Origin: Candidatus Avedoeria danica
Lineage (GTDB): Bacteria > Chloroflexota > Anaerolineae > Epilineales > Epilineaceae
Reading direction: 5' to 3'
Assembly (NCBI GenBank): GCA_016703025.1
Contig: JADJCV010000003.1
Span: 23,506-87,505 of the forward strand
Length of the DNA stretch: 64,000 bases
In this document: piece by piece, positions 27,434 through 47,501 of the stretch
How positions within the stretch are numbered: position 1 is the first letter of the stretch
How the letters are laid out: each line of letters begins with the position of its first letter
The notes under the pieces: generated by a model
What the model saw: the letters and a program-made list of their open reading frames with translations, nothing else
Told to the model about the DNA's origin: nothing
Database searches by the model: none
Made by a program: the position numbers and the translations under genes

Positions 27434-27970
27434 TCAGTCGGCTCTGTCGCCCAGCCGCCACCCGGGCCGCACGTGCATCGCCTCGAGCCAGGCCCCGGCG
27501 ACCAAGCCCCACACCAGCCAGGACGCGAACAGCACGCGGCCGTCGACCTCCCGCAGCAGCACCGGATCGAGCGCCGGCGCGACGGCCCAACGGACCAGCG
27601 CCCACGCGCCGATGGCTGCCGCGATCGCCCACGCCCGACGCGGCTCGTCGGGCGCGCGGCCGAGCAGTGCGCCGAGGCAGCCGCCGAACAGGGCACCGCC
27701 CGCGACGACGAGCACGGCGCCGAGCGGGGTCGCATCGGCGTACAGCCCGTCGAATGCCTGGCTCTGGCCGATCTGGAGCCAGCGGACAACCGTCGCGCCG
27801 ACGGCGTTCAGCGGCACGGCCCAGCCGCGCACGCCCCCGGCCAGCAGGCGGGCCTCCATCTGGGCGCCGCCGACGAGCGCCAGCAGCGCCGCCGCGCCGG
27901 CGACCGCGCCGCCGATCGCGCCGAGCCATGCCGGATGGGCCGGCCGCGCCCAAGCACGTTCGGGGTTCAC
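27434..27970 (-). CDS. Small polytopic membrane protein (178 aa, 5 predicted TM helices) translationally coupled to sufR
   Basis: GTG start (27968-27970) overlaps the sufR stop TGA (27967-27969) as GTGA. Hydrophobic segments include AWLGAIGGAVAGAAALLALVGGA, PLGAVLVVAGGALFGGCLGALLG, AWAIAAAIGAWALVRWAVA and VLFASWLVWGLVAGAWL. No family recognised. Confidence 0.5.
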   Translation of the reverse strand: MNPERAWARPAHPAWLGAIGGAVAGAAALLALVGGAQMEARLLAGGVRGWAVPLNAVGATVVRWLQIGQSQAFDGLYADATPLGAVLVVAGGALFGGCLGALLGRAPDEPRRAWAIAAAIGAWALVRWAVAPALDPVLLREVDGRVLFASWLVWGLVAGAWLEAMHVRPGWRLGDRAD

Positions 27971-28584
27971 ACCGCGGTTCGGATGCGGTAGATGCACGTG
28001 GCGCTGCCGTCCATCCGCCATTCCTCGCGCTCCACCGCGCCGCCGACGACGGCCTCGATGAGCCGTTCGTCCATGCAACAGACCTCGCGGTGCTGCTCGC
28101 CAAGGGCATGGAACGGGCACGAAAGCTGGTGCAGGACGAAGCCGTCCCCCTCCGGCTGCCAGCTCGTCGTGAACCCCTCGGCCGCCAGGAGCGACACGAC
28201 CGCGTCGAGACGGTCTTCGACGGGCCGGTCGGCGAACGAGCCGCGGTTCGTGTCGGCGATCGACTCGGCCATCGCCGCGAAGACGCCCTCGACCTGGCCG
28301 CGGTCCGCGGCGCGCATCGCGTCGAGGAGCCGCGCGGTCAGGACGGCGAACCGGTTGTCTTCCACGATCGCCTGCCCGCCCGTCTGCGACAACCGAAACA
28401 CGTGCCGCGGTCGCCCGCGCCCGGCGGGCTCGGCGGCGACATCGACGAGACCATCGTCCCGCAGCAGGTGCAGGTGATGGCGCACCGTCACCGGCGCCAG
28501 CCCGACCGCCTCGGCCAACGCCTCGACCGAGCCCGTGCCGTGCTCACGCAGGTACTGTAGGATGTCGCGCCGGGTGCTCTGCAT
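27967..28584 (-). CDS. sufR: SufR-like ArsR-family iron-sulfur cluster transcriptional regulator (wHTH plus C-terminal Cys cluster)
   Basis: 205 aa from Met170 of the track ORF. N-terminal MQSTRRDILQYLREHGTGSVEALAEAVGLAPVTVRHHLHLLRDDGLV. C-terminal LSCPFHALGEQHREVCCMDE...GSATCIY (4 Cys). -10-like TATAAT 7 nt upstream of the ATG (leaderless?). Divergent from sufA-sufS. Confidence 0.7.
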   Translation of the reverse strand: MQSTRRDILQYLREHGTGSVEALAEAVGLAPVTVRHHLHLLRDDGLVDVAAEPAGRGRPRHVFRLSQTGGQAIVEDNRFAVLTARLLDAMRAADRGQVEGVFAAMAESIADTNRGSFADRPVEDRLDAVVSLLAAEGFTTSWQPEGDGFVLHQLSCPFHALGEQHREVCCMDERLIEAVVGGAVEREEWRMDGSATCIYRIRTAV

Positions 28585-28852
28585 GGGGCGATTATACCGT
28601 CTCGAGACGATGCGGGTGCGCCCCGGCATCGCGGGACGTTGATCGGGAGGATGATCGGGTGGTTGAGCAGGTGGTGGATCGGGTGGTTGATGCGGGCGCG
28701 CAGTGCGGATCGCACGTGCGGCCGGCCGCCTCACCGCTGCCTGCGCTGTGCTACACTTGCGGCATCGTCCGAGTCCGTCGGCAGGCCGATCGAGCCGTCG
28801 TCGGATCCCCGTTTTCGGATCACCAGGGACCCCAACAGCAGGAGTGCATGCC

Positions 28853-29329
28853 ATGATCCGCGAAGATACTGCCCCCGCCGTCCGCACGACGACGTTCGTT
28901 ACGCTCTCCCCGGTCACCCTGTCTTCGACTGCGGCGGTCAAGCTGTCCGAAGTCATGGCCCAGAAGGGCATGACGGATGCGGCGCTGCGCGTGTTCGTCA
29001 GCGGCGGCGGCTGCTCGGGCCTGCAGTACGGCATGGCCTTCGACAACGAGATGGATGAGGCCGACCAGGTCTTCGAGAGCGAGGGCGTCAAGGTCGTCGT
29101 CGATCCCGTGAGCCTCCCCTACCTGCAGGGCGCCACGATCGACTTCACCGACTCGCTGATGGGCGGCGGCTTCAAGATCGAGAACCCGAACGCCGTGTCG
29201 AGCTGCGGCTGCGGCACGTCGTTCAAGACGTCCGATCAGGCATCGTCCGGGGCCGAGGGCGAGGCCAAGGCGCAGGGCGGCGGCTGCGGCAGCCACGGCA
29301 GCGGTGGTGGCGGCTGCGGCTGCAGTTGA
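28853..29329 (+). CDS. sufA: HesB/IscA/SufA-type Fe-S cluster insertion protein with an unusual C-terminal Gly/Cys-rich tail
   Basis: 158 aa. RVFVSGGGCSGLQYGMAFD...GVKVVVDPVSLPYLQGATIDFTDSLMGGGFKIENPNAVSSCGCGTSF is the HesB signature with 3 Cys. The tail is GAEGEAKAQGGGCGSHGSGGGGCGCS. GGAG lies 8 nt before ATG 28853. Confidence 0.85.
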   Translation: MIREDTAPAVRTTTFVTLSPVTLSSTAAVKLSEVMAQKGMTDAALRVFVSGGGCSGLQYGMAFDNEMDEADQVFESEGVKVVVDPVSLPYLQGATIDFTDSLMGGGFKIENPNAVSSCGCGTSFKTSDQASSGAEGEAKAQGGGCGSHGSGGGGCGCS

Positions 29330-30645
29330 TCGAAGGCGGGACTGAGCCGATCGCGGCGGCAACGACGTCGCTGATGCCGCAGGCGGCTTCGGTCTCGGCC
29401 GGCTCCCCTGTCGCCGATCCCGTGCCCGGTCTCGATCCGGCGGCCATCCGACGTGACTTTCCGCTCCTCGTCGCCCATCCCGAGCTGATCTACCTCGACA
29501 GCGCCGCAACGGCCCAGAAGCCGCAAGCGGTTCTCGACGCGCTCCTCGACTTCTACACGCACCACAACGCGAACGTCCACCGGGGCGCCTACACGCTGGC
29601 GGCCGACGCGACGCTGGCCTACGAGGCGGCCCGCGCCCGGATCGCCCGCTTCATCGGCGCGCGCGATGCGGCCGAGGTCGTCTTCACGCGCGGGACGACG
29701 GAGGCCGTGAACCTCGTGGCCGGCGCGTGGGGACCGGCGAACGTCTCCGCTGGCGACACGATCGTCGTCACGGAGATGGAGCACCACAGCAACCTCGTGC
29801 CGTGGCATCTGCTGGCCGCCCGGACCGGCTGCCGGCTGCGCGTGGTCCCGATCACACCCGACGGCCGCCTCGACCTCGACGGGCTCGACGGCCTGGTCGA
29901 CGAGACCGTCAAGCTGATCGCAGTCGCCCACATCTCGAACGCCGTCGGCACCGTCAATCCCGTCGCCGACATCGTCGCCGCCGCGCGGCGCGTCGGTGCG
30001 AAGGTGCTGCTGGACGCGGCGCAGAGCGTGCCGCACCGGAAGGTGGACGTCACCGCGCTCGGCGTCGACTTCCTGGCCGCCAGTGGGCACAAGATGATGG
30101 GCCCGATGGGCATCGGCTTCCTCTGGGCGCGGGCCTCGATCCTGGCCGGGATGCCGCCGTGGCAGGGCGGCGGCGAGATGATCCGGCGCGTGACACCGAC
30201 CGACAGCACATACGCCGATCCGCCGCAGCGCTTCGAGGCCGGCACGCCGTCCGTCGCGGATGCCGTCGCGCTCGCCGCCGCCGCCGACTACCTGGACCGC
30301 CTCGGCCTCGACGCCTGCGCCGCCCACGATGCATCGCTCGTCGCCTACGCCCTCGAGCGGCTCGGCGACGCGCCCGGCGTCCGCATCGCCGGCCCGCTCG
30401 ACGCCCCGTCGCGCTGCGGCTCGGTGGCCTTCACGGTCGACGGCGTGCACGCGCACGACCTGGCGACGCTGCTCGACGGCGACGGCCTGTGCGTCCGCGC
30501 CGGCCACCACTGCACGATGCCGCTGCACGCGCGGTTGGGGCTGGCGGCGACGGCGCGGGCGAGCTTCCAGGTGTACAACGGTACGGCGGACATCGACGCG
30601 CTGGTGGCGGGGATCGCCCGGGCGCGGGGGGTGTTTGGGGTTTAG
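29326..30645 (+). CDS. sufS: Cysteine desulfurase (SufS-type, class V aminotransferase)
   Basis: IRRDFPLL...IYLDSAATAQKP...NANVHRGAYTLA...SGHKMMGPMGIGFLW (PLP Lys)...GHHCTMPLH (catalytic Cys). TTG start overlaps the sufA stop. The alternative ATG at 29374 is possible. Confidence 0.85.
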   Translation: MIEGGTEPIAAATTSLMPQAASVSAGSPVADPVPGLDPAAIRRDFPLLVAHPELIYLDSAATAQKPQAVLDALLDFYTHHNANVHRGAYTLAADATLAYEAARARIARFIGARDAAEVVFTRGTTEAVNLVAGAWGPANVSAGDTIVVTEMEHHSNLVPWHLLAARTGCRLRVVPITPDGRLDLDGLDGLVDETVKLIAVAHISNAVGTVNPVADIVAAARRVGAKVLLDAAQSVPHRKVDVTALGVDFLAASGHKMMGPMGIGFLWARASILAGMPPWQGGGEMIRRVTPTDSTYADPPQRFEAGTPSVADAVALAAAADYLDRLGLDACAAHDASLVAYALERLGDAPGVRIAGPLDAPSRCGSVAFTVDGVHAHDLATLLDGDGLCVRAGHHCTMPLHARLGLAATARASFQVYNGTADIDALVAGIARARGVFGV

Positions 30646-30670
30646 ACAAAGGGGCTCGCGTGGCCGAGGA

Positions 30671-30830
30671 GGCCCCCGCCCCCGGCGCGCTGTCGCGCGC
30701 CGACCCCTCCCCCAATACTGGGGGCGGGGTGCAGAACGAATGCGACTCGTTCAAGACCCTCCCCCAGAATTGGGGGAGGGACAGGCTGGCCGCAGGCCAG
30801 CCAGGGCGGGGGCCTCGCCGCACACCACAA
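30671..30830. repeat. Palindromic intergenic repeat element copy A (about 150 bp), related to copy B at 61442-61590
   Basis: Inverted 24-26-bp motifs cccctcccccaatactgggggcgggg / ccctcccccagaattgggggaggg, followed by the hairpin ggctggcc-gcag-gccagcc. GC-rich inverted flanks ggcccccgcccccgg / agggcgggggcc. Lies between the sufS stop and the flotillin promoter. Confidence 0.6.
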
Positions 30831-30928
30831 CCCCATCCGCCCATCCATCGTATGATCCCCCCGTGCTGCGTCCCCCGGACGGCACCGTGCCGCCCCGACG
30901 CACACGCGCAAGGAGGATCACACCAACC

Positions 30929-33073
30929 ATGAGCCCGTTCGTCTGGCTGTTCCTGGCCGTCATCGCCCTGCCGACGGCGTGGTGGCTGTTCCCGCGCTTC
31001 AGCGGCATCCGCTTCATCCCGAACAACCGCGTCGCGATCGTCGAGAAGCGGTTCAGTGGGCGCGGCTCGCTCAAGAGCGGCTTCATCGCCCTCAACGGCG
31101 AGGCCGGCTATCAGCCGCAGGTGCTGCGCGGCGGGCTGCACTTCCGGATGCCGCTGCAGTACAAGATCCACAGCATCCCGCTCGTCACGATCCCGCAGGG
31201 CAAGCTCGGCTACATCTTCGCCCGCGACGGCGCGCGGCTCGAGCCGGGGCAGACGCTGGCGTCCAACTCACGCGTCGTGAACTTCGAGGACGCGGATGCG
31301 TTTCTGCGCGGCGGCGGGCAGCGCGGGCCGCAGCGCCAGGTGCTCCGCGAGGGGATCTACGCCTTCAACCTGGCGCAGTTCGCCGTGATCACGGACGAGA
31401 AGGTCTACGCGCTGGCGCTGTCCGGCGAAGAGGCCGAGATCATCAAGCAGATGGCCGACATGATCACCCAGCGGGACGGCTTCCGCGCGGTGATCATCAA
31501 GGACGCGGACGACCTCGCCGGCGTCGTCACCGTCCACGACGGGCCGTCATTGCCGCAGGGTGCGATCATCGCCCCGACGATGGGCGACGACCCGGCCCAC
31601 GCCGACACGTACCACAACAGCTTCCAGGACGCCGACAAGTTCCTGGCCGCCGGCGGCATGCGCGGCCGGCAGCTGCAGGTGCTCGTCGAGGGCACGTACT
31701 ACCTGAACCGCCTGTTCGCCACGGTCGAGACGATCCCGAAGACCGTCGTCGACGTGGGCTACGTCGGGGTCGTCGTGTCCTACATCGGCGAGGTCGGCAC
31801 GGACATCTCGGGCACGGACTACAAGCACGGCGAGCTCGTAACGCGCGGCAGCCGCGGCGTCTGGAGCGAGCCGCTCCTGCCGGGCAAGTACGCGTTCAAC
31901 ACGTACGCCGGCAAGGTCAACATGGTGCCGACGACCAACTTCATCCTGAAGTGGGTGCGCAGCGAGTTCGGGTCGCACAACCTGGACGAGAACCTGTCCG
32001 AGGTCTCGTTGATCACGAAGGACGCGTTCGAGCCGAACCTGCCGCTGTCGGTGGTCATCCACATCGACTACCGCCAGGCGCCGCTCGTGATCCAGCGCTT
32101 CGGCGATGTGAAGCGGCTGGTGGAGCAGACGCTGGACCCGATGGTGTCGGCGTACTTCAAGAACATCGGCCAGACGCGAACGCTCATCCAGCTGATCCAG
32201 GAGCGGAACCAGATCCAGGAACAGGCCAGCATCGAGATGAAGGCCAAGTTCCACCACTACAACCTCGAGCTGGAAGAGGTCCTGATCGGCACGCCGGCCT
32301 CGAGCAGCGGCGACGACAAGATCGAGGTGATCCTGACGCAGCTGCGCAGCCGCCAGATCGCCGAAGAGCAGGTCGAGACCTACAAGCGCCAGGAGCGGGC
32401 GGCCTTCCAGGAGCGCGTCCTGCGCGAGGCCGAGGCCAGGGCGCGCCAGCAGCAGAAGCTGACGGAGTCAGAGGTCGAGATCACGATCCAAAGCAACCAG
32501 GGCAAGGCGGACTACCAGCGGGCGTTGCAGCAGGCCGCCCAGATCCGCGCGCTGGCCGAGGCCGAGGGCGAGAAGGCGGCCCGCATCGGCATCGGACAGG
32601 CGATGGCCATCGAGGAGCAGGTGCGGGCGTACGGCGGGCCGCAGTTCCAGGTGATGCAGGCGGTGATGAACCGGTTCGCCGAGGCGATCGAGGCCTCGGG
32701 GGTCGACGTCGTGCCGAAGATCCTCATCGGCGGCAGCGGCGGCGGTGCGGGCGGCGATGGGTCGTCGGGCGGCGGCGGGGCGTTCGGCGGGGGCGGCGGG
32801 AGCGGCAGCCTCGTCGAGGCGTTGCTGGCGATGCTGCTGAGCGACAAGGTCGGCGGGCTGGCGAGCGCGGGCGGTGGCGACGGCGAGGGGGGCGGGCGGA
32901 GCCCGGAGGTCGAGGCGATGCGGAAGCAGATTCGGGAGGGGATGTTCAAGAAGGTGGAGGAGGTGTCGGAGGCGGTGGCCGCTCCGCCGGCAGCGCCCGC
33001 ACAGTCGACGCCCTCGGGCACGGGAACACCCGGCGCGCCGGCGGGATCGACGGCAGGGGCGACGCCGGCGTGA
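30929..33073 (+). CDS. Flotillin-like SPFH/band-7 protein (714 aa)
   Basis: Met224 of the track ORF with AAGGAGGA upstream. N-terminal TM (MSPFVWLFLAVIALPTAWWLF), an SPFH domain, and a long coiled coil (EQVETYKRQERAAFQERVLREAEARARQQQKLTESEV...). Gly-rich C-terminus. Confidence 0.8.
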   Translation: MSPFVWLFLAVIALPTAWWLFPRFSGIRFIPNNRVAIVEKRFSGRGSLKSGFIALNGEAGYQPQVLRGGLHFRMPLQYKIHSIPLVTIPQGKLGYIFARDGARLEPGQTLASNSRVVNFEDADAFLRGGGQRGPQRQVLREGIYAFNLAQFAVITDEKVYALALSGEEAEIIKQMADMITQRDGFRAVIIKDADDLAGVVTVHDGPSLPQGAIIAPTMGDDPAHADTYHNSFQDADKFLAAGGMRGRQLQVLVEGTYYLNRLFATVETIPKTVVDVGYVGVVVSYIGEVGTDISGTDYKHGELVTRGSRGVWSEPLLPGKYAFNTYAGKVNMVPTTNFILKWVRSEFGSHNLDENLSEVSLITKDAFEPNLPLSVVIHIDYRQAPLVIQRFGDVKRLVEQTLDPMVSAYFKNIGQTRTLIQLIQERNQIQEQASIEMKAKFHHYNLELEEVLIGTPASSSGDDKIEVILTQLRSRQIAEEQVETYKRQERAAFQERVLREAEARARQQQKLTESEVEITIQSNQGKADYQRALQQAAQIRALAEAEGEKAARIGIGQAMAIEEQVRAYGGPQFQVMQAVMNRFAEAIEASGVDVVPKILIGGSGGGAGGDGSSGGGGAFGGGGGSGSLVEALLAMLLSDKVGGLASAGGGDGEGGGRSPEVEAMRKQIREGMFKKVEEVSEAVAAPPAAPAQSTPSGTGTPGAPAGSTAGATPA

Positions 33074-37026: not shown

Positions 37027-38160
37027 TTGCGCTGCGCAAAGTGCGGCCACAAGATTCGCGGCGCCACATGGTATTGCCCGTCGTGCGGCACGCCCGTCGA
37101 TGACCTGAACGTCGCGGACAGCGTCTACGCCTCCGGCTGGTCGAGGCTGTGGGTGCGGATCCTCTCGGCCGCCGTGGCGCTCTTCGCGCTGGCCGGCGTC
37201 GTCTTCCTGACCGGGCGCGTGCTGCGGGGCGTCGACCTGGCCCGCCGCACCGCCCGCCCGACCGCCACCGCCGCGCTGCCCGCCGCGCCATCCGCCGCGG
37301 ACGCCGGCGCCACCGTCAATGGGCCGATCGAAACGCTCGTCGCCGCCGGCGAGCGCAGTGCCGGGCTCTACCCGGACGGTGCCGTCGACGCGCCGCCCGG
37401 CGTGGCGACGGCGTTGCCGACGGGTGAGCCGACGGTGGTGGCGCCCGCGGGTGTGCCGACGCAGCTTGCCGCGCCGAGCACGGACGTGCCGGCCCGCGCC
37501 ACGCCGCCCCCGACCGCCCCCGCCCGCCCGGATGCGCCCGTTTGGGCCATCCCGCGCATCGGCAGCACGCTGCAGATGGACGGTTGGCTGGACGACTGGC
37601 CGACCGCGCCGCTGTCGATTGCGGACGTCGTGTTCGGGCGAGGCGCGTGGTCGGGGGCGGACGATCTGTCGGCCACCGCTCGCATGGCGTGGGACGAGCA
37701 GATGCTCTACCTCGGCGTCGAGGTGACGGATGACGTTTTCAGCCAGGGTGCGTCGGGCCGCGACCTGCACATGGGCGACGGCGTCGAGCTTCAACTGGAC
37801 ACCGACCTCGCCGGCGATTTCGACAGCGAGGCGATGAGCGCGGACGATTGGCAGATCGGCATCTCACCCGGCGACCTGGCCGGCCGTGCGCCGGAGGTCT
37901 ACGCCTGGCGCCCGCGCAGCGGGCCGATGTCCGGCGTCCGCCTCGGCGCCCGGGCGACCGACACCGGCTACGTCCTCGAAGCCGCCCTCCCGTGGGCCGC
38001 GATCGACGTCAACCCGCAGGCCATCGACACCATCGGCGCTTCGCTGAACGTCACCGACAACGACACGGGCGAGAGGGCACAACAGACGATGATCGCCTCG
38101 AGCGCGCGCCGGGCGTGGGGGGATCCGCGGACGTGGGGGACTTGGGTGTTGGGGCGGTAG
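37027..38160 (+). CDS. Membrane-anchored protein with an N-terminal zinc-ribbon (CxxC-x13-CxxC), one TM helix and a C-terminal CBM9/DOMON-like domain
   Basis: MRCAKCGHKIRGATWYCPSCGTP, then TM WVRILSAAVALFALAGVVFLTG, then LQMDGWLDDWPTAP...LYLGVEVTDD...GDGVELQLD. Only a TTG start is available in frame, 6 nt after the preceding stop. Confidence 0.55.
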   Translation: MRCAKCGHKIRGATWYCPSCGTPVDDLNVADSVYASGWSRLWVRILSAAVALFALAGVVFLTGRVLRGVDLARRTARPTATAALPAAPSAADAGATVNGPIETLVAAGERSAGLYPDGAVDAPPGVATALPTGEPTVVAPAGVPTQLAAPSTDVPARATPPPTAPARPDAPVWAIPRIGSTLQMDGWLDDWPTAPLSIADVVFGRGAWSGADDLSATARMAWDEQMLYLGVEVTDDVFSQGASGRDLHMGDGVELQLDTDLAGDFDSEAMSADDWQIGISPGDLAGRAPEVYAWRPRSGPMSGVRLGARATDTGYVLEAALPWAAIDVNPQAIDTIGASLNVTDNDTGERAQQTMIASSARRAWGDPRTWGTWVLGR

Positions 38161-38189: not shown

Positions 38190-38211
38190 GGGGCACGGCG
38201 CGCCGTGCCCC
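38190..38211. terminator. Perfect 22-bp GC palindrome ggggcacggcgcgccgtgcccc between convergent genes, overlapping the stop of the SufU-fusion gene
   Basis: Seen directly. Bidirectional terminator-like. Confidence 0.45.
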
Positions 38212-39524
38212 TACGGGCCGTCGACAGTCAGACCCGGTCCGTAATCGAACACCTGCTGCGAACGCGACGTGATCCCGGACGCCTCGTTGTCCACCTGCTG
38301 GACCAGGATCCGGCCGTTCTCGGCACCGATCCAGATCTCGAACGTCGAGGTGAACGCCGTGCCGCCGCTGGCGGCGGCGACGACATAGCTGTAGTGCTTC
38401 GCCGGCACGCCGTTGACGGTGGAGGTGCCCAGAACGCGCGCCTCGGCCATCGAGCGGGCCGCGTTGGCGACGACGGCCGGGTTGCGCAGCGGGTCGAACG
38501 TCGCTTGGAGCGTCGCGACGACGGTGTCGTCGGGGTGCCACTCGCCGCCGAGGTTGAAGTACCCCTTGTCGCCGATCCGGGCGGCGTGCATGCCCGGCGC
38601 GACCATGCTGTAGCGGTCGGGGGCGACATAGGTCAACGTCATCGGGAAGGTCTGGTTGATCGTCTGCGTGGTCTGGCGGATCCGGAAGGCGTCCGCGTCG
38701 GCCAGCTGGAGCTGCGCGGCGAAGATCTCGGCGACGGCCTGCGGCTCGCCGTGGTCGGCGACGGTGGGCAGCGCGGCGGGCATGGTCGAGTTCGATGGGT
38801 CCGTCGACCCGGTCGTCGTCGAGGCCGTGGTGTGGGTCAGCACGGTCGCCGCCCCGGCGGCCGAGTCCGGCGTCGGCGCCGCGCCGGGCGCATCGAGCGA
38901 CCGCGTCGGCGCGAGCGGCGCCGGATCGGCGGCGTCGCTGGCCGCCGTGCCGCCGGCCGCCTGCCCATCGGACGGCCGCGGCGCGCACGCCGCCGTGCCG
39001 ACGATCAGCGCCACGATCCACCCGGCGGCCAGGACGCTCTTGAGCGTGTGCCACGCCAGCGTCGCGCACTTCACGCGCATCGGGAAGCGCCGCACGCCGG
39101 ACAGCGCGGCCAGCGGGCCGACGTCGGCCGCCAGGCTGAACAGATCGTCGTCTGCCGTGCCGATGTCCGTGCCGGCGACGTTGCGATCGTCATCACCATC
39201 GCCGTTACCATCGCCGTCGCCATCGCCCATGATCAAGCCGTGGACCTGCGTGAACAGCGCCTCGGCCTCGCCGAACGAGCGGCCGATGACGGCGTCGCAC
39301 AGCATCGAGGCCGAAGCGATGCTGATCGCACAGCCGTCGCCCTCGAACGAGACATCGACGATCCGGTCGTTCGCGGCGCGGACGAAGAGCTTCACGCGGT
39401 CCCCGCACAGCGGGTTGTCGCCCTCGGCCGTGCGGACGTCGGGGCCCGTCAGAGGACCGTGGTGATGCGGGTGGCGGCTGTGCTCGAGGATGACGGTCTG
39501 GTAGAGGTCGAGTAGGTCGGACAT
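38211..39524 (-). CDS. sufU: SufU-type Fe-S scaffold / sulfur-acceptor domain fused in-frame to a TM/lipobox-like segment and a roughly 270-aa extracytoplasmic domain (LolA/LppX-like fold suspected)
   Basis: Residues 1-160 are SufU. MSDLLDLYQTVILEHSRHP...NPLCGD (Cys1) ... DGCAISIASASMLCD (Cys2) ... FPMRVKCATLAWHTL (Cys3), with the SufU-specific insert being an acidic GD repeat (GDGDGDGNGDGDDDRNVAGTDIGTADDD). There is no stop after SufU. Instead GWIVALIVGTAAC (TM / possible lipobox) runs into a Pro/Ala/Thr-rich linker and a beta-rich domain. The start is the Met aligned to SufU N-termini (Met70 of the track ORF). Confidence 0.7.
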   Translation of the reverse strand: MSDLLDLYQTVILEHSRHPHHHGPLTGPDVRTAEGDNPLCGDRVKLFVRAANDRIVDVSFEGDGCAISIASASMLCDAVIGRSFGEAEALFTQVHGLIMGDGDGDGNGDGDDDRNVAGTDIGTADDDLFSLAADVGPLAALSGVRRFPMRVKCATLAWHTLKSVLAAGWIVALIVGTAACAPRPSDGQAAGGTAASDAADPAPLAPTRSLDAPGAAPTPDSAAGAATVLTHTTASTTTGSTDPSNSTMPAALPTVADHGEPQAVAEIFAAQLQLADADAFRIRQTTQTINQTFPMTLTYVAPDRYSMVAPGMHAARIGDKGYFNLGGEWHPDDTVVATLQATFDPLRNPAVVANAARSMAEARVLGTSTVNGVPAKHYSYVVAAASGGTAFTSTFEIWIGAENGRILVQQVDNEASGITSRSQQVFDYGPGLTVDGP

Positions 39525-39705: not shown

Positions 39706-40755
39706 ATGTCCTCCCCCACCCGCCCCGCCACCCCTGCCCGCCTGCGCCGCCTGCATGCCGCCGGCGCGCTCGACGCCGACGGCTATCGGCGGGTGCTGGC
39801 CGCGGCGTTGGCGCTGCCCCCCGCGGCGGCATGGCGGCGGTTCCTGGACCGGTTGATGCTGGCCATCGGCGCGACGCTGACCGTCACCGGCATCGTCGCG
39901 TTCTTTGCCTACAACTGGGCCAGCCTGGGCCGTCTTGGGCGCGTCGGGCTCGTCGAGCTCGCCCTCGTGACGGTCGGGGGGGTGGCGCTGTGGGCCGGTG
40001 TCGACCGGCTCGGCGGGCAGCTGGCGGGCATGGCCGCCGTGGCGCTCACCGGCGTCCTCCTCGGGGCGATCGGCCAGGCGTACCAGCAGGGCGCCGACCC
40101 TTGGACGCTCTTTGCCGTCACCGCCGCTCTCGGCCTGCCGTGGCTGATGGCGACGCGCTTCGCGCCGCTCTGGCTGCTCGAGTTGATCCTGGCGAACCTC
40201 GCCCTTGGGCTGTGGTGGATCATCGACCTCGGGGACGACGGTGGCGCCGTCGCGCGTTTTCTCCTCGCGCTCAGCGCGCTGAACGGCGGCGCCTGGCTGT
40301 CATGGACGCAGGGCGCGGCGAGCGCCGGACTGTCGGCGGGGCGCTGGCTCCCGCGCGTCGTCGCGCTGGCCGCGCTGGCGCCGCTGGCGATCGGTGCGGC
40401 GGCGTACGTCGCCATCGACGTGCTGCGGTACGATGCCGGCCCGGATGACCTCCGGTTCGGGCCGAGCGGGCTGGCGGTGTTCGTCGTCTGGCTCATCGTG
40501 ACGGCGGCGATTCTCGTCCTCTTCCGCCGCCGCTGGCCCGACCTGTTCATGCTGGCGGCGGCGATGCTCGGAATCTGCACGGTGCTCACGGCGGCCATGT
40601 TCCGCTGGCTGATCGAATGGGTCCAGCGGTCGAGCGATGTCGGCGGGCCGTGGCTCGTCATGGCCGCGTTCCTGTTGGCCGAGGGCGGCCTGACGGCGAT
40701 CTGGCTGCGGCGCCAGCAGCTGGCGATGGCGGCCGCGGAGGACGACGCCCCATGA
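39706..40755 (+). CDS. DUF2157-like polytopic membrane protein (first gene of a conserved three-gene membrane module)
   Basis: Start Met62 of the track ORF (the sufU-fusion gene occupies the upstream region on the other strand). N-terminal cytosolic region then many TM helices (AIGATLTVTGIVAFFAYNW, LVELALVTVGGVALWAG...). Assignment is by recalled family architecture and needs an HMM check. Confidence 0.65.
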   Translation: MSSPTRPATPARLRRLHAAGALDADGYRRVLAAALALPPAAAWRRFLDRLMLAIGATLTVTGIVAFFAYNWASLGRLGRVGLVELALVTVGGVALWAGVDRLGGQLAGMAAVALTGVLLGAIGQAYQQGADPWTLFAVTAALGLPWLMATRFAPLWLLELILANLALGLWWIIDLGDDGGAVARFLLALSALNGGAWLSWTQGAASAGLSAGRWLPRVVALAALAPLAIGAAAYVAIDVLRYDAGPDDLRFGPSGLAVFVVWLIVTAAILVLFRRRWPDLFMLAAAMLGICTVLTAAMFRWLIEWVQRSSDVGGPWLVMAAFLLAEGGLTAIWLRRQQLAMAAAEDDAP

Positions 40756-41852
40756 TCCTCCCCCCGCCCACGCTCGGCGATGCCCTTGCGGCAGCCGGCC
40801 TCCCGCGCGACGCCGGCGCCGGCGGCACCGGCGCAGCGAACGCCGGCGGCAGCCCGTGGTACGTCCGGCTGCTCGTCGCCGGCTTGGCCTGGGCCGCCGC
40901 GCTGTCCGTGACGGGCTTCCTGGCGGCCACCGGCATGATCGACGAGGACGCCTTCGCCTATTGGGGCATCGCGGCGGCTGCCGCATCGATCGTCCTCGCC
41001 CGCCGGGGCCCGTCCGACGCCGACGCACGCGGCGCGGTGGCCGACTTCGTGGCCCAGCTCGCGCTCGTGCTCAGCCTGCTCGCGCGCGTGCTCGTGTTCA
41101 TCGGCGTCGGGGCGTGGGCGAACGGTGACCAAGCGGTCATCGGCGGGGCGATGGCCGCCCTCGAGATCGTCCTCTTCATCGCCTACCCGGACTTCTTCCA
41201 ACGCTTCCTCGCCAGCGGCCTTGCCTGCGCCTGGCTGCTCGTCGTGCTCGGCGACGTCGACGACGTGCTGTTCGTGGCCTACGCGCGGGACGTCGTGACG
41301 CTGCTTGCGGCCTTCGGGGGGGCGTGGCTCTGGATCGATCGCCCGCGCCTCCTCGCCGGCCGTCTGGCGGACTACGCCGCGCCGGCCGGTTATGGGCTGG
41401 CGGTCTTCGTCGTCGGCGCGCTCCTGCAGGAGACGATCGCGGCGTTCGGCCGGTTCTTGCCCGGCGCGCGCTGGCCGGCCACCGCCGGGCTGGCGATCGG
41501 CGTCGTATGGCTCCTGCTGTGGGTGCGCGGGCGGCTCGGCCGGCCGATCGTCGATGCCGGCGCCGGCGTGCTCATCGTCCTCGTCGCCGCGCTCGCGTAC
41601 GCCACCCGGATCGAGCCGGGCATCCTGGCCGCCGTCGGCGTGCTGCTCCTCGGCTTCCTGGCGCGCGACGGGCTGCTGCACGGCCTCGGCGTCGCGGCGA
41701 TGGGCGCGACGGTCTGGCACTTCTTCTACAGCATGAACCAGACGATGCTCGTCAAGAGCGGGATCCTCGTGGCCGGCGGGCTCGTTCTCCTGGGCGGGCG
41801 CTGGGTCTGGCTGCGGTTGGCGGGCGATCCGAACGTGGGCGACGGCCGATGA
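40752..41852 (+). CDS. DUF4401-like polytopic membrane protein
   Basis: Start Met46 (MILPPPTLGDALAAAGL) overlapping the previous stop (ATGA). About 10 predicted TM helices. Typical partner of DUF2157 and GDYXXLXY proteins. Confidence 0.65.
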   Translation: MILPPPTLGDALAAAGLPRDAGAGGTGAANAGGSPWYVRLLVAGLAWAAALSVTGFLAATGMIDEDAFAYWGIAAAAASIVLARRGPSDADARGAVADFVAQLALVLSLLARVLVFIGVGAWANGDQAVIGGAMAALEIVLFIAYPDFFQRFLASGLACAWLLVVLGDVDDVLFVAYARDVVTLLAAFGGAWLWIDRPRLLAGRLADYAAPAGYGLAVFVVGALLQETIAAFGRFLPGARWPATAGLAIGVVWLLLWVRGRLGRPIVDAGAGVLIVLVAALAYATRIEPGILAAVGVLLLGFLARDGLLHGLGVAAMGATVWHFFYSMNQTMLVKSGILVAGGLVLLGGRWVWLRLAGDPNVGDGR

Positions 41853-42482: not shown

Positions 42483-42620
42483 CTACGCGGTGTGGGATGT
42501 GGGAGCCGAGGTGCCGGCATCCGGGGCGGGGATCGGTGACGCGGTGGCCTGTGGTCGCACTTGATCGCATGGGGTCGCCCACAACGCATGCCGCGCCTTG
42601 AGCGTCTATCGTTGTCCACC

Positions 42621-45600
42621 ATGATGCACCCGCCTCGCTCGCCCATGCTCACGCGCACCGCCGTATTCGTCGGCCTCGCCGCCGTCGCGTGCGCGGTCCC
42701 CATCGCCGTCGCCGCCCGGCGCGCCGACGTCGGCGCCACCGCACCTGTGCAGGCCCGGCCCCGGGCCCAGTTCCTGGCCCAGTCCCAGCCGCAGCCGCCG
42801 ACCGCATACGCGTTGGCCGGCGAGTGGGTGTGGCCGGAGCGGCCGATGCTGCCGGTGGATGTCGCGTTTCTGGAGGACGGGCGCGTCGTGGTGGCCGATG
42901 GTCGGAACCCGCGCGTCGTCGTCGTCGGCCCCGAGGGGGACGTCGAGGCGGTGTGGCGGACGGCGTACGAGCCCGTGGCGCTGGCGGTGGATCCGGCGGG
43001 CGGGCGGGTGTACGTGCTGTGCTTCGCGCAGACGCGGGCGCGCGTCGGGCGGGATGCCGTGGTGACGACGCACGAGGTTCTCGAGACCTGGGCGCTGGAC
43101 GGGCAGCGGGTGCGACAGGATGTCCTGCCGGGATGGTCGACGGCCAGCGCCGACGAGGCGCCGAGCTGGGATGTCGCGGTGGCGTGGGGCGGGGCGCCGG
43201 TCGTGCAGGCCGACAACGTGCTCTACCGCGTGACGCTGTCCGATGACGACGCCGTGCCTGCGACGTTCACGCCGCTGTCGGGCCTCTCGCGCGGCACCGC
43301 GGTGCGCCCGGTTCGCCTTGCCGCGGCGGACGACGGGCTCGTCATCGCCCAGGCTGCGACCGGCATCGTGTCCCGCGTGGACGCCACCGGGCGCACCGTG
43401 GCGCGCCGAGACTGGCCGGGCGAGCGCGTGCTCGACGTCGCGATCGACCGCCGCGAGCGGGTGCACGTCCTCGTCGGGCCGGGCGAAGGCGGTGCGGGCG
43501 GCCGGGTGCGGCACATCGTCCTGAGCGCCGCGCTGGCACCGCTGGACGATCGGCCGTTGGCGGACGACGCCGCGCCTTCGGCGACCATCGCCCCCGCACA
43601 GGCCGCGTTCGCCTGGGCGCTCGACGTGTACGGCGACGGCGTGGCGGTCGTCGGGGGCGGGGCCAACCTGTCGCTCCGGCGCTGGACGGGGCCGGTGTCG
43701 GACGCGCCGGCCGTCGTGCAGCCGTTCGGTGCGCGTCCGGCCGCGTTCGACGCGCGCGACAAGCGCGTGGCCGGCAGCCGCGCGCTGGCCCTCGGCGCGC
43801 TGCCCGACGGCCGGACGGTGGCCCTTGATGGGCCGCAGGCGCGTGTCGTGGCATTCGACGCGTCCGGTCTCGGGACGAACGTCGTCACGTTCGCGGGCGA
43901 CGCGGTCGATGCGGCCGTGGCGGAGGACGGGACGGTGTGGGCGACGTTTGCCGACGGCACGGTGCGGCGCGTGACCGGACCGGGACTCGGGTCGCTTGGC
44001 GCGGCGCCTGACGACCCATCCGCCGCGCGATGCGAATGCCCGCTCGGCGGTCGGATCGCGGTGGACCGTTCGCGCGCCTACGTTTCCCGGCCGACGAGCC
44101 GAACGGTGGCCGGGATCGCCGGTTTGGCCGGCCTTGCGCCCGACGATGCACCGGGCGGTGCGTCGCCGCGGCTGCTCGCCTGGGCGGAGGGCGTCGGCCT
44201 CTGGCCGAGCGACATCGCGGTGGCCGCCGACGGTACCGTGCTGGCGGCGGATGCGATCGCGGGCGAGATCGTCGGGTGGTCGCCGGGGTCGCTCGAGGGT
44301 GCGCCGCCGGACCGGCGCTGGCCGGCGGGGCTGCTGGCCGGGCCGCGGCGGCTCGCGGCGGGGCGCTTCGGCGGGCCGGGCGGCCTGGATCTGGTGGCCG
44401 CCACGCTGACGGACGGTGCCGTCGAGGTCCACCGCGGCGACGACGGCGGACTGCTGGCGCGCTTCACGCCGGTTGTCGACGGGGCCGTCGTGTCGGCCGA
44501 GGACGTGGCGCTGCACGCGGATGGGCGGATCGTGTTGGCCGAAGCGGTCTCGCGCCGGGTGCACGCCTTCGTGCCGTCCGCGGCGCCGGTCGACCCGACC
44601 GAGCCCGGCGGGCTGGGTGCCACCCCATCGCCGACGCCGACGCCGTCGGACGGGAGCTGTCGTGTGAGCGGCGACAAGCGGGTCGGGCCGGAAACGATCG
44701 TGCTCGGCCAGACGGCCGCCGTCACGTTGACGCTCTCGGCTGATTGCCCGCCGCGCGCGCGGCTAGCCGGGGCCGACATCGTCCTCGTGCTCGATCGCTC
44801 CGGCTCGATGTACGGTGAGGCGATGCAGCGCGCCAAGGACGCGGCCCGGACGTTCATCGAGCTCCTCGATGTCCGGCGGCACCGCGCGGCGCTCTTGTCG
44901 TTCGCCGGCTTCGTGACCGTCGACGCGCCGCTGTCGACGGACAGCGCGGCGGTCATCCGGGCCCTCGACACGCTCGTGCCGGACGGCGGGACGAACCTGA
45001 CGGACGCGATCCGCCAGGCCGGCATCGTGCTCGGCCGCGAAGGGCGGGCGGATGCGTTGCCGGTCATCGTCCTGATGACGGACGGGCGCGACTCGAACGG
45101 GCGCGACGGGCCGCTCCAGGCGGCCGGAGATGTGAAGGCGCAGGGCGTCCAGATCTACACGATCGGCCTCGGGCGCGACCTCGACGAGGGCGGGCTGCAG
45201 GCGATCGCAACGCGCCCCGACCGCTACTTCCACGCGCCGACGCCCGACGAGCTCTTCCCGATCTATCGCCAGATCCTGCGCTTGGTGGAGACGAGCCTCG
45301 CCGGCAACCTGATCGTGACGGACCGGCTGGGCGACCGGATGGCGATGATCGGTGGTTCCTCGGCACCGGCAGCGCTCGAGGGCGCCGACCGTCTGTCGTG
45401 GGGCCGCTCGATCCTGCCGGCCTCCGGTGTGACGTTCACCTACCGCGTGCGCCCGATCGAAGCCGGTCGCTGGCCGGTGAACCGCGAGGCCGTCGCCCGC
45501 TACGCCGATGCGGACGGGGTCGAGCGCTCGTTCGTCTTCCCGGTGCCGCAGATCCTCGTCCTGGCGCCCACCCCCACCCCCACCGCCACACCGACCTCGA

Positions 45601-46978: not shown

Positions 46979-47217
46979 CGGAATTTCCGGTCGTTCAAGC
47001 ACGCGGTCTCGCGCCCGGAAGAGGTCTGGCGGATCGAAGTGCGGCACAGAGTAGTTGGTGGACCGCCCCGCGGCGTGCGGGCCAAAAACGTCAACGAGCA
47101 AGATGACATCCCAACGATCTTGCTCGATCAATTGCCTGCTCGTTCGACGGGATTGGGGCGTCCGCTCCAATCTACGCGCCGACGACAATCCGCGGCGGCC
47201 ATAGAAGCGAAACCTGG

Positions 47218-47344
47218 TGCGGGGGGTCCAGGGGGGCGCTGCGCCCCCTGGCTGGGGTGCAGGGGCCAAGCGGCCCCTGCGAACAAAATGCACGAACCCA
47301 AAAAGCCCCGTCCCCAACCACCCCCGCCCGCCGGCTCTGCACCC
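47218..47344. repeat. Right arm of the 125-bp inverted repeat; the 238-bp lower-GC core lies at 46979-47216
   Basis: See the left arm. Followed by a roughly 150-nt polypyrimidine (C/T-rich) leader up to the VWA paralog 2 start codon. Confidence 0.7.
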
Positions 47345-47501
47345 CGTCCCCTGCCCTACCTCTTCCCTTGCCCGACCTCCCACACACCCCCCCCCAACGC
47401 CCCACGCGTCCGATCACACCCTGCTATCCTTCCCCCCCGGTCGCGCCTTCTACCTCCTGCCGCACGCCGTTCGCGCCCGACGCCCAGCCGGGGGAGCCTG
47501 C

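What the first reader, a model, noticed from the sequence alone, without database searches (positions are those of the whole stretch)
38211..39524. SufU Fe-S scaffold fused in-frame to a TM/lipobox segment and an extracytoplasmic LolA/LppX-like domain, with an acidic GD-repeat insert
Seen in the sequence: residues 1 to about 160 carry all three SufU cysteines and the SufU-specific insertion between Cys2 and Cys3. Here that insertion is GDGDGDGNGDGDDDRNVAGTDIGTADDD. The reading frame continues without a stop from the canonical SufU C-terminus (FPMRVKCATLAWHTLKSVLAAG) into a hydrophobic helix with a lipobox-like IVGTAAC, then a Pro/Ala/Thr linker and a roughly 250-aa beta-rich domain. SufU is a cytoplasmic partner of SufS, and sufS here is 8 kb away beside sufA and sufR. 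A cytoplasmic Fe-S/sulfur-transfer domain tethered to the membrane with an exported domain is not a described architecture (inference). Alternatively, a lost stop codon or a sequencing frameshift joined two genes.
Basis: partly seen in the sequence, partly recalled or inferred. Interest (0 to 1): 0.7.

Follow-up and report, generated by a model that had tools for sequence, protein, structure and literature searches.

The report
SufU fused to an exported lipoprotein
In a small group of uncultured Ardenticatenales (Chloroflexota), the cytoplasmic sulfur-transfer protein SufU has fused with the lipoprotein gene that used to follow it, so one gene now encodes a cytoplasmic enzyme domain, an internal lipoprotein signal sequence and an exported LppX/LprG-like domain; this layout is real, rare and under selection, but its function is untested.

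Summary
ORF 38211-39524 (-) encodes 437 aa in five parts:
- a bona fide SufU domain (TIGR01994 at 127 bits, cutoff 92.5; Cys40, Asp42, Cys65 and Cys153 all present)
- a slippage-prone acidic GD loop
- one hydrophobic segment ending in a lipobox (Cys180)
- a disordered Pro/Ala/Thr linker

It is not a sequencing artefact. The same in-frame fusion occurs in at least six other assemblies from two lineages that share about 57-66% identity. Both domains evolve under purifying selection (dN/dS about 0.15-0.28), while the linker does not (about 1.0-1.1).

Related MAGs show the likely ancestral state: sufBCD, then sufU (152 aa, with a stop), a 49-51 nt spacer with a strong SD, and a separate lipoprotein gene. 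A deletion removed the stop, the spacer, the SD and the signal peptide's n-region.

Most likely the SufU domain stays on the cytoplasmic face and the C-terminal domain is exported. The conserved lipobox suggests lipidation and Lsp cleavage into two products, but this step is inferred, not shown. I rate it a new variant of known kinds, of moderate interest.

The parts
38211..39524 (-). Whole fusion gene (437 codons plus TAG).
   Evidence: Open frame and sequence. The same start, MSDLLDLYQ, is used in all orthologues. Monocistronic here: divergent from a DUF2157 gene and convergent with a CBM9 gene.
39036..39524 (-). SufU domain, residues 1-163. Zinc and sulfur-acceptor residues Cys40, Asp42, Cys65 and Cys153, with Lys152 where IscU has His.
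   Evidence: TIGR01994 at 127.3 bits, above the 92.5 cutoff. NifU_N at E 8e-20. Two-block alignment to 1su0, 2qq4 and 5xt5_D. AF2 pLDDT 88-96. dN/dS 0.15-0.26 against L002/L004.
39132..39227 (-). Acidic, low-complexity GD-repeat loop (residues 100-131) inside the SufU-specific insertion between Cys65 and Cys153.
   Evidence: Tandem repeats of period 6/12/24 at 39179-39227. Length and sequence differ between close strains and are short in unfused relatives. pLDDT about 50. dN/dS 0.5-0.6.
38985..39035 (-). Internal signal-anchor: hydrophobic h-region VLAAGWIVALIVG plus lipobox TAAC (residues 164-180; the Cys180 codon is 38985-38987). It derives from the signal peptide of the formerly separate lipoprotein gene.
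   Evidence: Only Kyte-Doolittle peak (2.07 over 19 residues) and only match to a PROSITE-type lipobox pattern. Fits the Gram-positive lipoprotein pattern from K162 onward, with the same basic-to-Cys spacing as L001 despite a different sequence. AF2 draws one helix, 148-174, continuous with the last SufU helix. Homology to the h-region of unfused P0015.
38784..38984 (-). Pro/Ala/Thr-rich disordered linker (residues 181-247).
   Evidence: pLDDT below 50 for residues 176-248. dN/dS 1.0-1.1. Length and sequence not conserved between lineages.
38214..38783 (-). Extracytoplasmic LppX/LprF/LprG-like (LolA-superfamily fold) domain, residues 248-437.
38191..38210 (.). Perfect 20-nt palindrome GGGCACGGCGCGCCGTGCCC immediately after the stop codon, between the two convergent genes. 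Possibly a terminator hairpin.
   Evidence: Read directly from the sequence. The consensus terminator scan found nothing because there is no T tract.
29326..30645 (+). sufS, the expected catalytic partner of the SufU domain (8.6 kb away). It carries the GVHAHD motif, whose second His (His377) aligns with M. tuberculosis SufS His354.
   Evidence: TIGR01979 at 544 bits, above the 475 cutoff. Alignment to 8odq_B. Role of His354 from PMC10216065.
28703..29329 (+). sufA/erpA-type A-type carrier gene, overlapping the start of sufS.
   Evidence: PF01521. TIGR00049 at 127 bits.
27967..28584 (-). SufR-like ArsR-family regulator gene, divergent from sufA-sufS.
   Evidence: Best NCBIfam hit is TIGR02702 SufR_cyano, E 6e-25, aligned over the full length but below the equivalog cutoff.

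Best explanation
This is a genuine, fixed gene fusion.

**Origin.** In the ancestor, inferred from the unfused relatives, the suf operon ended sufB-sufC-sufD-sufU followed by a gene for an LppX/LprG-like lipoprotein. An in-frame deletion removed the sufU stop codon, the roughly 50-nt spacer with its Shine-Dalgarno sequence, and the positively charged n-region of the lipoprotein signal peptide. The last SufU helix now runs directly into the signal peptide's hydrophobic core and lipobox.

**How it most likely works.**
1. The N-terminal SufU domain folds in the cytoplasm. There it still acts as the zinc-dependent sulfur acceptor for SufS and hands sulfur on to SufBCD. The fold and conserved residues are shown; the activity is inferred.
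2. The internal hydrophobic segment acts as an N-in/C-out signal-anchor, so the linker and the LppX/LprG-like domain are exported through Sec (inferred).
3. The conserved lipobox cysteine is then diacylglyceryl-modified by Lgt and the chain is cut by Lsp (inferred; about even odds). This would give two products in 1:1 amounts. One is SufU carrying a C-terminal hydrophobic tail that keeps it at the membrane until signal-peptide peptidases remove it. The other is an ordinary mature lipoprotein.

On this reading the fusion is a natural polyprotein resolved by the lipoprotein pathway. Translation of the lipoprotein now depends wholly on the sufU start.
For: **The fusion is real.**
- The same in-frame architecture occurs in the window, P0001, P0002, L002/P0003, L004 (MAG JADYYS01), L007 (JGI) and the divergent L001 (MAG JBDTSC01).
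- Identity of the window to L001 is 66% in SufU and 57% in the C-domain.

**Likely ancestral state.**
- L005 has sufD, then sufU (152 aa, stop), 51 nt containing AGGAGAGGA, the lipoprotein P0015, and a convergent CBM9 gene.
- L012-L016 have the same pair with a 49-nt spacer.
- L001 keeps sufBCD directly upstream of the fusion.
- The CBM9 and fumarase genes downstream are syntenic in all loci.

**Both halves are functional.**
- dN/dS is 0.15-0.26 for the SufU core and 0.20-0.28 for the C-domain, against 1.0-1.1 for the linker.
- All SufU ligands are present.
- SufS has the matching His (PMC10216065).

**Export.**
- C-domain relatives carry N-terminal signal peptides; 99 of 149 match a strict lipobox, with the Cys at median position 22.
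- There is a single hydrophobic peak.
- The net charge is +3 on the N-side and 0 on the C-side.
- AF2 shows a helix, then a disordered linker, then a folded domain.

**Processing.**
- The lipobox Cys and an 18-position basic-to-Cys spacing are kept in both fused lineages, although the h-region sequences differ (KSVLAAGWIVALIVGTAAC against RAAVLALLLVVGSGALAGC).
- L001 has the canonical LAGC; the consensus is from PMC8048626.

**No internal restart.** No SD-like motif precedes any in-frame ATG/GTG/TTG between residues 101 and 182 in the fused genes.
Against: - Nothing here is experimental. Topology, lipidation and cleavage are inferred from sequence.
- The window-clade lipobox has Thr at position -3 (TAAC). 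This is outside the [LV] consensus, although it occurs in 2 of 99 family lipoboxes.
- Conservation of the Cys rests on only two divergent lineages.
- I found no documented case of Lgt/Lsp processing of a lipobox placed after a folded cytoplasmic domain of about 160 aa.
- The hydrophobic stretch is short, about 17 residues. Its summed Hessa-scale value is near 0 kcal/mol, so insertion is borderline.
- The transmembrane segment starts only 10 residues after the zinc ligand Cys153. Docking of the SufS dimer against a membrane-apposed SufU could be hindered; this was not modelled.
- Whether the genome has a second, free SufU is unknown. None is present in this window.
Confidence: 0.6

Rival explanations
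1. An uncleaved bitopic protein with a new coupled function. The hydrophobic segment is a permanent transmembrane anchor, lipidated or not, and the outside LolA/RseB-like domain senses or binds an envelope ligand. This would control the location, availability or regulated release of the cytoplasmic SufU, as in single-pass anti-sigma factors. Alternatively, it could localise sulfur transfer for Fe-S assembly to the membrane.
For: - The layout of cytoplasmic domain, one TM segment, linker and outside LolA-like domain is the layout of many single-pass sensors (own knowledge).
- LolA-like lipoproteins of monoderm bacteria can act as protein regulators rather than lipid carriers (GerS; bioRxiv 10.1101/2025.01.13.632879).
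- The fusion has persisted in two lineages under purifying selection.
- The sufU-lipoprotein adjacency predates the fusion.
Against: - The lipobox cysteine and signal-peptide geometry are retained. A plain TM anchor would not need them.
- The linker evolves neutrally.
- The nearest relatives do well with two separate genes, so covalent linkage is not required for function.
- No partner protease or regulator is encoded next to the gene.
Confidence: 0.22
2. Two proteins from one frame by internal translation initiation. For example, initiation at Met149 of FPMRVKC would give MRVKCATLAWHTLKSVLAAGWIVALIVGTAAC as a normal N-terminal lipoprotein signal peptide, and the full-length fusion would be a minor product.
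For: An in-frame ATG at residue 149 and GTGs at 144 and 151 lie upstream of the hydrophobic segment. A start there would create an n-region with 3 basic residues.
Against: - No SD-like motif precedes any candidate start, whereas the unfused lipoprotein genes have AGGAGAGGA 6-8 nt upstream of their starts.
- Met149 is equally present in unfused SufU genes, so it is a SufU residue and not a new start.
- Ribosomes translating sufU would still read through and make the full-length chain.
Confidence: 0.06
3. The hydrophobic segment does not insert into the membrane. The whole 437-aa protein would be cytoplasmic, and the lipoprotein-derived domain would have been co-opted for an intracellular role or be on its way to decay.
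For: The hydrophobic stretch is short and its Hessa-scale sum is about 0. A pre-folded N-terminal domain precedes it.
Against: - The C-domain is under purifying selection comparable to that on SufU.
- Most of its relatives carry N-terminal export signals.
- The lipobox and charge asymmetry are conserved.
- A Kyte-Doolittle mean of 2.07 over 19 residues is well above the usual TM threshold.
Confidence: 0.08
4. An assembly or sequencing artefact, meaning a frameshift or a missed stop, joined two adjacent genes in this window only.
For: Related genomes do have two separate genes at this position.
Against: - The fused frame is reproduced in at least six other assemblies from ENA, NCBI, JGI and Logan. 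These carry substitutions and in-frame indels but never a stop.
- The spacer, the SD and the n-region are physically absent rather than merely read through.
Confidence: 0.01

Closest known systems
Stand-alone SufU (B. subtilis 5XT5_D/1XJS; M. tuberculosis Rv1465, 8ODQ_A), the zinc-dependent sulfurtransferase of the SUF pathway
   Same: Passes the TIGR01994 equivalog cutoff. Has the sulfur-acceptor Cys, the Asp and two further Cys, Lys before the last Cys, and the SufU insertion. The partner SufS carries the His that swaps onto the zinc. In relatives the gene sits after sufBCD (PMC10216065).
   Different: Known SufU proteins are soluble and about 140-165 aa long. Here the last helix continues into a membrane segment and 270 more residues, and the insertion loop is about 15-20 residues longer and built from a GD repeat.
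Unfused sufU + lipoprotein gene pairs in related Anaerolineae MAGs (L005 = CAZYVI010000025; L012-L016)
   Same: Orthologous genes (67% identity in SufU, 61-62% in the C-domain), with the same order and the same flanking sufD and CBM9 genes.
   Different: Two genes: sufU ends ...RQALDRHADGAR*, followed by a 49-51 nt spacer with an SD. The lipoprotein has its own start and an Arg-rich n-region.
Mycobacterial lipid-carrier lipoproteins LppX, LprF and LprG (Pfam LppX_LprAFG; LolA superfamily)
   Different: Sequence identity is 10-17%. No Pfam model of the clan reaches its threshold (DUF2092 at 19 bits against 21.2). Ligand unknown. No link of LppX or LprG to Fe-S assembly is known to me.
Other SufU fusion proteins (SufU-DUF59/SufT-like, SufS-SufU, SufU-A-type carrier)
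   Same: SufU is joined in one frame to a neighbouring suf-operon product (P0005-P0014).
   Different: Those partners are cytoplasmic Fe-S biogenesis proteins. Here the partner is an exported lipoprotein, so the product must span the membrane.
Bradyrhizobium japonicum FbcH, the cytochrome b/c1 polyprotein split at an internal signal peptide (own knowledge: Thony-Meyer et al., 1991; not found in the searchable library)
   Same: A bacterial gene fusion in which an internal export signal between the two halves is used and cleaved, giving two mature proteins from one translation product.
   Different: FbcH uses signal peptidase I, and its N-terminal half is an integral membrane protein. Here the signal is of the lipoprotein (Lsp) type and the N-terminal half is a soluble enzyme. 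Cleavage here is only inferred.

Membership tests
SufU (TIGR01994, zinc-dependent sulfurtransferase) | Score above the curated equivalog cutoff. | tested here: met
   127.3 bits against a cutoff of 92.5. The IscU, NifU and NifU_clost models score far below their cutoffs.
SufU (TIGR01994, zinc-dependent sulfurtransferase) | Sulfur-acceptor Cys, plus Asp and two Cys as zinc ligands; no His before the last Cys (IscU/NifU have His). | tested here: met
   NPLC40GD42, GDGC65AIS and RVK152C153ATL align with B. subtilis NPTCGD, GEGCSIS and RIKCATL. Feature list from PMC10216065.
SufU (TIGR01994, zinc-dependent sulfurtransferase) | SufU-specific insertion between the second and third Cys. | tested here: met
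   Present and enlarged: about 33 unaligned residues between the two alignment blocks, against about 7-16 in solved SufU structures.
SufU (TIGR01994, zinc-dependent sulfurtransferase) | Cognate type II SufS with the zinc-swapping His, and suf-operon context. | tested here: met
   SufS TIGR01979 at 544 bits. GVHAHD aligns with the M. tuberculosis His354 motif. sufBCD lies directly upstream in L001 and L005.
SufU (TIGR01994, zinc-dependent sulfurtransferase) | Zinc binding and stimulation of SufS activity. | not testable with these tools
   Needs purified protein.
Bacterial lipoprotein precursor (Lgt/Lsp substrate) | Lipobox [LV][ASTVI][GAS]C with an invariant Cys after a hydrophobic h-region. 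| tested here: met
   The window has TAAC (Thr at -3 is atypical) and L001 has the canonical LAGC. Both fit the PROSITE-type and Gram-positive lipoprotein patterns. Consensus from PMC8048626.
Bacterial lipoprotein precursor (Lgt/Lsp substrate) | Signal peptide at the N-terminus (Cys within about the first 15-40 residues). | tested here: not met
   The Cys is residue 180, after a 163-aa folded domain. Family members have the Cys at median position 22.
Bacterial lipoprotein precursor (Lgt/Lsp substrate) | Descent from proven or predicted lipoproteins. | tested here: met
   99 of 149 family representatives have an N-terminal lipobox. The orthologue P0015 has ...LLAVGLIGC.
Bacterial lipoprotein precursor (Lgt/Lsp substrate) | Actual S-diacylglyceryl modification and Lsp cleavage; lgt and lspA present in the genome. 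| not testable with these tools
LolA superfamily / LppX_LprAFG | Unclosed half-beta-barrel with helices plugging or lining a cavity. | tested here: met
LolA superfamily / LppX_LprAFG | Match to a Pfam model of the clan above its gathering score. | tested here: not met
   The best match is DUF2092, at 16.5-19 bits against a cutoff of 21.2. Only 7 of 76 family members touch DUF2092, and 2 of 76 touch LppX_LprAFG, at E <= 0.01.
LolA superfamily / LppX_LprAFG | Binding of an acylated or hydrophobic ligand. | not tested
   The cavity was not analysed; no ligand data exist.
Single-pass anti-sigma factor or RseA/RseB-type envelope sensor | Cytoplasmic anti-sigma (zf-HC2/RsdA-type) domain and an adjacent ECF sigma gene. 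| tested here: not met
   The cytoplasmic part is SufU only. No sigma factor gene lies next to it.

The most novel reading that the evidence does not exclude
The fusion is a natural polyprotein that the lipoprotein pathway (Lgt/Lsp) resolves at an internal lipobox. This leaves SufU tail-anchored on the cytoplasmic face, so that sulfur transfer for Fe-S assembly happens at the membrane. On this reading the long-standing sufU-lipoprotein linkage reflects a real functional tie between SUF-dependent Fe-S biogenesis and an envelope ligand carrier of the LppX/LprG type. The junctions differ in the two fused lineages, so the fusion may even have arisen twice, which would point to selection for it.
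Probability: 0.15. Interest if true: 0.75.

Novelty: new variant of a known kind. Interest (0 to 1): 0.5.

Why it matters
If the product behaves as inferred, three things follow.
- It is a natural test of whether Lgt and Lsp can process a lipobox that sits behind a large folded cytoplasmic domain.
- It would be the first membrane-tethered SufU that I could find, placing a step of Fe-S assembly at the membrane.
- The fused and unfused orthologues form a clean before-and-after pair. They show how a cytoplasmic gene and a secreted-protein gene can merge by one deletion that recycles a signal peptide as an internal anchor.

It also flags an uncharacterised, Pfam-less lipoprotein family with the LppX/LprG fold. 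That family is co-transcribed with suf genes in one Chloroflexota clade.

The practical reach is limited. The clade is small and uncultured, and no function for the outside domain is known.

Tried and rejected
- **Family searches on the C-domain.** Pfam and NCBIfam gave only sub-threshold hits (DUF2092, SCO4651 lipoprotein), so the domain was classified by fold instead.
- **AFDB search.** The afdb50 fold library was unavailable.
- **Metagenome scan.** It added only one more fused locus (L007).
- **Profile search in the word-indexed database.** It scored only 16 proteins.
- **Context of distant family members.** P0018 had no DNA available. P0167 is not linked to suf genes, so the suf linkage is clade-specific.
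- **Shared operator.** The sufR/sufA intergenic region and the region upstream of the fusion gene share no k-mer of 11 or more. The CGTCTCGAGACG palindrome is not repeated there.
- **Promoter and terminator scan.** Nothing was found.
- **Internal start.** No SD precedes any in-frame start codon, so this idea was down-weighted.
- **One fusion event or two.** The window clade, L001 and L005 are about equidistant (fumarase identity 0.89, 0.89 and 0.835) and no outgroup was available, so this is unresolved. The junctions do differ: L001 keeps SufU's terminal GAR and the window clade does not.
- **sufR.** My first attempt tested the wrong frames and found nothing. The correct ORF was found later.
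- **Second copies.** A second SufU or a paralogue of the C-domain was sought in the window and none was found. sufBCD is not in this window either.
- **Literature.** Searches for SufU-lipoprotein fusions, internal lipoboxes, Lsp-cleaved polyproteins and fbcH found nothing relevant.
Full report
**1. What is in the sequence**

On the minus strand an open frame runs from ATG 39524 to TAG 38213-38211, giving 437 codons. Longer upstream starts are possible: a GTG giving 506 aa, and a gene-caller choice giving 464 aa. Every orthologue, fused or not, begins MSDLLDLYQ. In L005 that Met lies 23 nt after the sufD stop. I therefore take 39524 as the start.

G+C is about 70-80% and third-position G+C is 0.91, like the neighbouring genes.

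**2. The N-terminal domain is SufU**

- NCBIfam TIGR01994 (SufU, equivalog) scores 127.3 bits against a cutoff of 92.5. The IscU and NifU models are far below their cutoffs. Pfam NifU_N scores E 8e-20.
- The domain aligns with solved SufU proteins (S. pyogenes 1su0, T. thermophilus 2qq4, B. subtilis 5xt5_D) in two blocks. These carry Cys40, Asp42, Cys65 and Lys152-Cys153.
- These are the sulfur-acceptor and zinc-ligand positions, and the Lys-for-His difference from IscU, described for SufU in PMC10216065.
- Between the blocks are about 33 residues that include the acidic GD repeat.
  - At the DNA level this is a period 6/12/24 tandem array at 39179-39227.
  - Its length differs between near-identical strains, and it is short in the unfused relatives.
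  - AF2 gives it pLDDT of about 50.
  - I read it as a slippage-prone disordered loop inside the normal SufU insertion.
- The partner enzyme is present. sufS at 29326-30645 scores 544 bits on TIGR01979 (cutoff 475.1). It has GVHAHD, aligned with the motif holding His354 of M. tuberculosis SufS, the residue that swaps onto the SufU zinc.
- sufA overlaps the start of sufS, and a SufR-like regulator gene is divergent from them.
- sufBCD is not in this window.

**3. The junction**

After ...KCATLAWHTLKS the frame continues as VLAAGWIVALIVGTAAC-APRPSDGQ.

- This is the only strong hydrophobic peak in the protein, with a Kyte-Doolittle mean of 2.07 over 19 residues; the next peak is 1.34. It is also the only match to a PROSITE-type lipobox pattern.
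- From K162 onward it also fits the Gram-positive lipoprotein signal-peptide pattern.
- The net charge is +3 on the N-side and 0 on the C-side. By the positive-inside rule this predicts N-in/C-out.
- AF2 on the full length draws one helix, residues 148-174, running from the last SufU helix through the hydrophobic stretch. It is followed by a disordered segment (176-248, pLDDT below 50) and then a confident C-terminal domain.

**4. The C-terminal domain**

- Residues 248-437 fold with pLDDT 95.4.
- Foldseek against the PDB puts LppX, LprG and LprF first, followed by LolA, RseB and MucB.
- No Pfam model reaches threshold. DUF2092 scores 16.5-19 bits against a cutoff of 21.2, and only 7 of 76 relatives touch DUF2092 at E <= 0.01.
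- An exhaustive search of 1.84 billion cluster representatives found 230 relatives at E <= 0.001.
  - Of the 150 listed, the only SufU-fused protein is P0003. It is also the longest at 437 aa; the others are 72-358 aa.
  - 99 of the 149 I checked have a strict lipobox in the first 60 residues, with the Cys at median position 22. Many of the others have near-lipoboxes, ordinary signal peptides, or are fragments.
- By descent, therefore, this domain belongs outside the cytoplasmic membrane.

**5. Artefact or real gene?**

The same in-frame fusion is found in several independent assemblies:

| Record | Source | Identity to the window protein |
|---|---|---|
| P0001 | ENA | one substitution |
| P0002 | Logan | 87% |
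| L002/P0003 | ENA | 86% |
| L004 | NCBI MAG, Ardenticatenales SJ541 | about 89% in SufU, 95% in the C-domain |
| L007 | JGI | 96% in the C-domain |
| L001 = L006 | NCBI MAG, Ardenticatenales cluster3_bin.261 | 66% in SufU, 57% in the C-domain |

The copies differ by substitutions and in-frame indels, never by a stop.

dN/dS between the window and L002 or L004 is as follows:

| Segment | dN/dS |
|---|---|
| SufU core | 0.15-0.26 |
| C-domain | 0.20-0.28 |
| Hydrophobic segment | 0.13-0.29 |
| GD loop | 0.5-0.6 |
| Linker | 1.0-1.1 |

The counts behind these ratios are small, and dS is probably depressed by the G+C bias. The contrast between the domains and the linker is nevertheless clear. Both halves are kept by selection.

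**6. Where it came from**

Two related lineages have the genes unfused.

- In L005 (Anaerolineales MAG CAZYVI010000025; the same locus as L003) the order is sufD, then sufU of 152 aa ending ...HTLRQALDRHADGAR*. Then come 51 nt containing AGGAGAGGA, a 293-aa lipoprotein (P0015, 61% identical to the window C-domain) starting MAIMEANPHARRSQLARRRRAAAAGAAGLALLAVGLIGC, and a convergent CBM9 gene.
- L012-L016 (Logan) show the same pair with a 49-nt spacer (P0166).
- L001 has sufB-sufC-sufD directly upstream of its fused gene.
- The CBM9 and fumarase genes downstream are syntenic in all loci, including the window.

The most likely ancestral arrangement was therefore sufBCD, sufU, the lipoprotein gene, then the convergent CBM9 and fumarase genes. 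The fusion arose by a deletion of the stop, the spacer, the SD and the n-region.

In the window clade the gene was later separated from sufBCD. It now lies divergent from a DUF2157-DUF4401(-GDYXXLXY) cluster.

The junctions differ between the two fused lineages. The window has KSVL|AAGWIVALIVGTAAC, while L001 has RSALGAR|AAVLALLLVVGSGALAGC and keeps SufU's terminal GAR. The three lineages are about equidistant. One event followed by drift and two independent events cannot be told apart here.

A more distant family member, P0167, is not next to suf genes. The suf linkage is therefore specific to this clade.

**7. How it most likely works**

*Shown here:*
- The domain identities and the conserved catalytic residues.
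- The single hydrophobic segment with a lipobox.
- Purifying selection on both domains.
- Loss of the lipoprotein gene's own translation signals.
- No SD-like motif in front of any internal in-frame start.

*Inferred:*
- SufU remains cytoplasmic and serves SufS and SufBCD.
- The hydrophobic segment inserts N-in/C-out and the C-domain is exported.

*Further inferred, at about even odds:*
- Lgt lipidates Cys180 and Lsp cuts before it.
- That would yield a tail-anchored SufU plus a normal mature lipoprotein. The fused gene would then be a polyprotein resolved by the lipoprotein pathway.

The main support for processing is that both fused lineages keep the Cys, a lipobox and an identical 18-position spacing from the last basic residue to the Cys, although the h-region sequence has changed. 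L001 has the canonical LAGC (consensus from PMC8048626).

Against it:
- The window clade has Thr at position -3.
- Only two lineages are available.
- I found no precedent for an internal lipobox behind a folded domain.

*Rivals:*
- An uncleaved bitopic protein with a sensor or localisation role.
- Internal initiation.
- Failure to insert into the membrane.
- An artefact.

These are weighed in the rival section of this report.

**8. Comparison with what is known**

- The N-terminal domain is a member of SufU by every sequence test I could run. The architecture is not that of any described SufU.
- The other SufU fusions seen here have cytoplasmic partners: DUF59, SufS and an A-type carrier.
- The C-domain has the LppX/LprG/LolA fold but fails the Pfam thresholds. 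It is best called an unclassified family of that superfamily.
- LolA-like lipoproteins in monoderm bacteria can be protein regulators rather than lipid carriers (GerS preprint). The fold alone therefore does not fix the function.
- The nearest mechanistic analogue I know is the B. japonicum FbcH cytochrome b/c1 polyprotein, which is cleaved at an internal signal peptide. This rests on my own knowledge and could not be verified in the library.

**9. Verdict**

The feature is real. The architecture is rare, limited to one small clade of uncultured Ardenticatenales. It is explained evolutionarily as a fixed in-frame fusion of two neighbouring suf-operon genes. It is a new variant built from known parts.

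The topology is likely, the processing is plausible, and the role of the outside domain is unknown. Interest is moderate at 0.5. It would be higher if membrane-tethered SufU or internal-lipobox processing were demonstrated.

Noticed in passing
window 38191-38210: A perfect 20-nt palindrome, GGGCACGGCGCGCCGTGCCC, lies directly after the fusion gene's stop codon, between the two convergent genes. It may be a bidirectional terminator hairpin without a T tract. The consensus terminator scan missed it.
   Followed up: partly
window 28598-28609: A perfect 12-nt palindrome, CGTCTCGAGACG, sits in the intergenic region between the SufR-like gene (27967-28584, minus strand) and sufA. It is a candidate SufR operator. 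It is unique in the window at 0 mismatches and is not present upstream of the fusion gene.
   Followed up: partly
window 28703-29329: The sufA ORF, as listed from GTG 28703, has about 70 residues before the Fe-S_biosyn domain (domain at residues 71-175). The true start is probably further downstream. Its stop overlaps the sufS start.
   Followed up: no
window 39706-41852 (+), and L002 4760-7487: A DUF2157 - DUF4401 (- GDYXXLXY in L002) membrane-protein cluster lies divergent from the fusion gene. It occupies the place that sufBCD holds in L001 and L005, so the suf operon was broken up in the window clade.
   Followed up: partly
window 37027-38160 (+): A conserved convergent neighbour encodes an N-terminal zinc-ribbon-like CxxC...CxxC motif, one hydrophobic segment and a C-terminal CBM9-like domain. 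It is syntenic with the sufU/lipoprotein locus and fumarase in all five related loci.
   Followed up: no
window 42561-46298 (+), 47217-51113 (+), 51153-54725 (-), 5101-7317 (+): Four large proteins, three of about 1200-1300 aa and one of about 740 aa, contain VWA domains; two of them also have NHL repeats. This is an unusual concentration in one window.
   Followed up: no
P0172 (695 aa, JGI): A protein with CopC and CopD (copper resistance) Pfam domains weakly matches the C-domain family profile (E 7e-6). This may be another fusion of this LolA-like domain to a membrane protein.
   Followed up: no
window 30260-33073 (+): A 937-aa ORF immediately after sufS has only an SPFH/Band 7 domain recognised, at residues 496-707. 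The rest is unassigned.
   Followed up: no
window 3-5114 (-): The K+-transporting ATPase genes kdpA and kdpC, and a P-type ATPase gene (kdpB-like), lie at the left end of the window.
   Followed up: no
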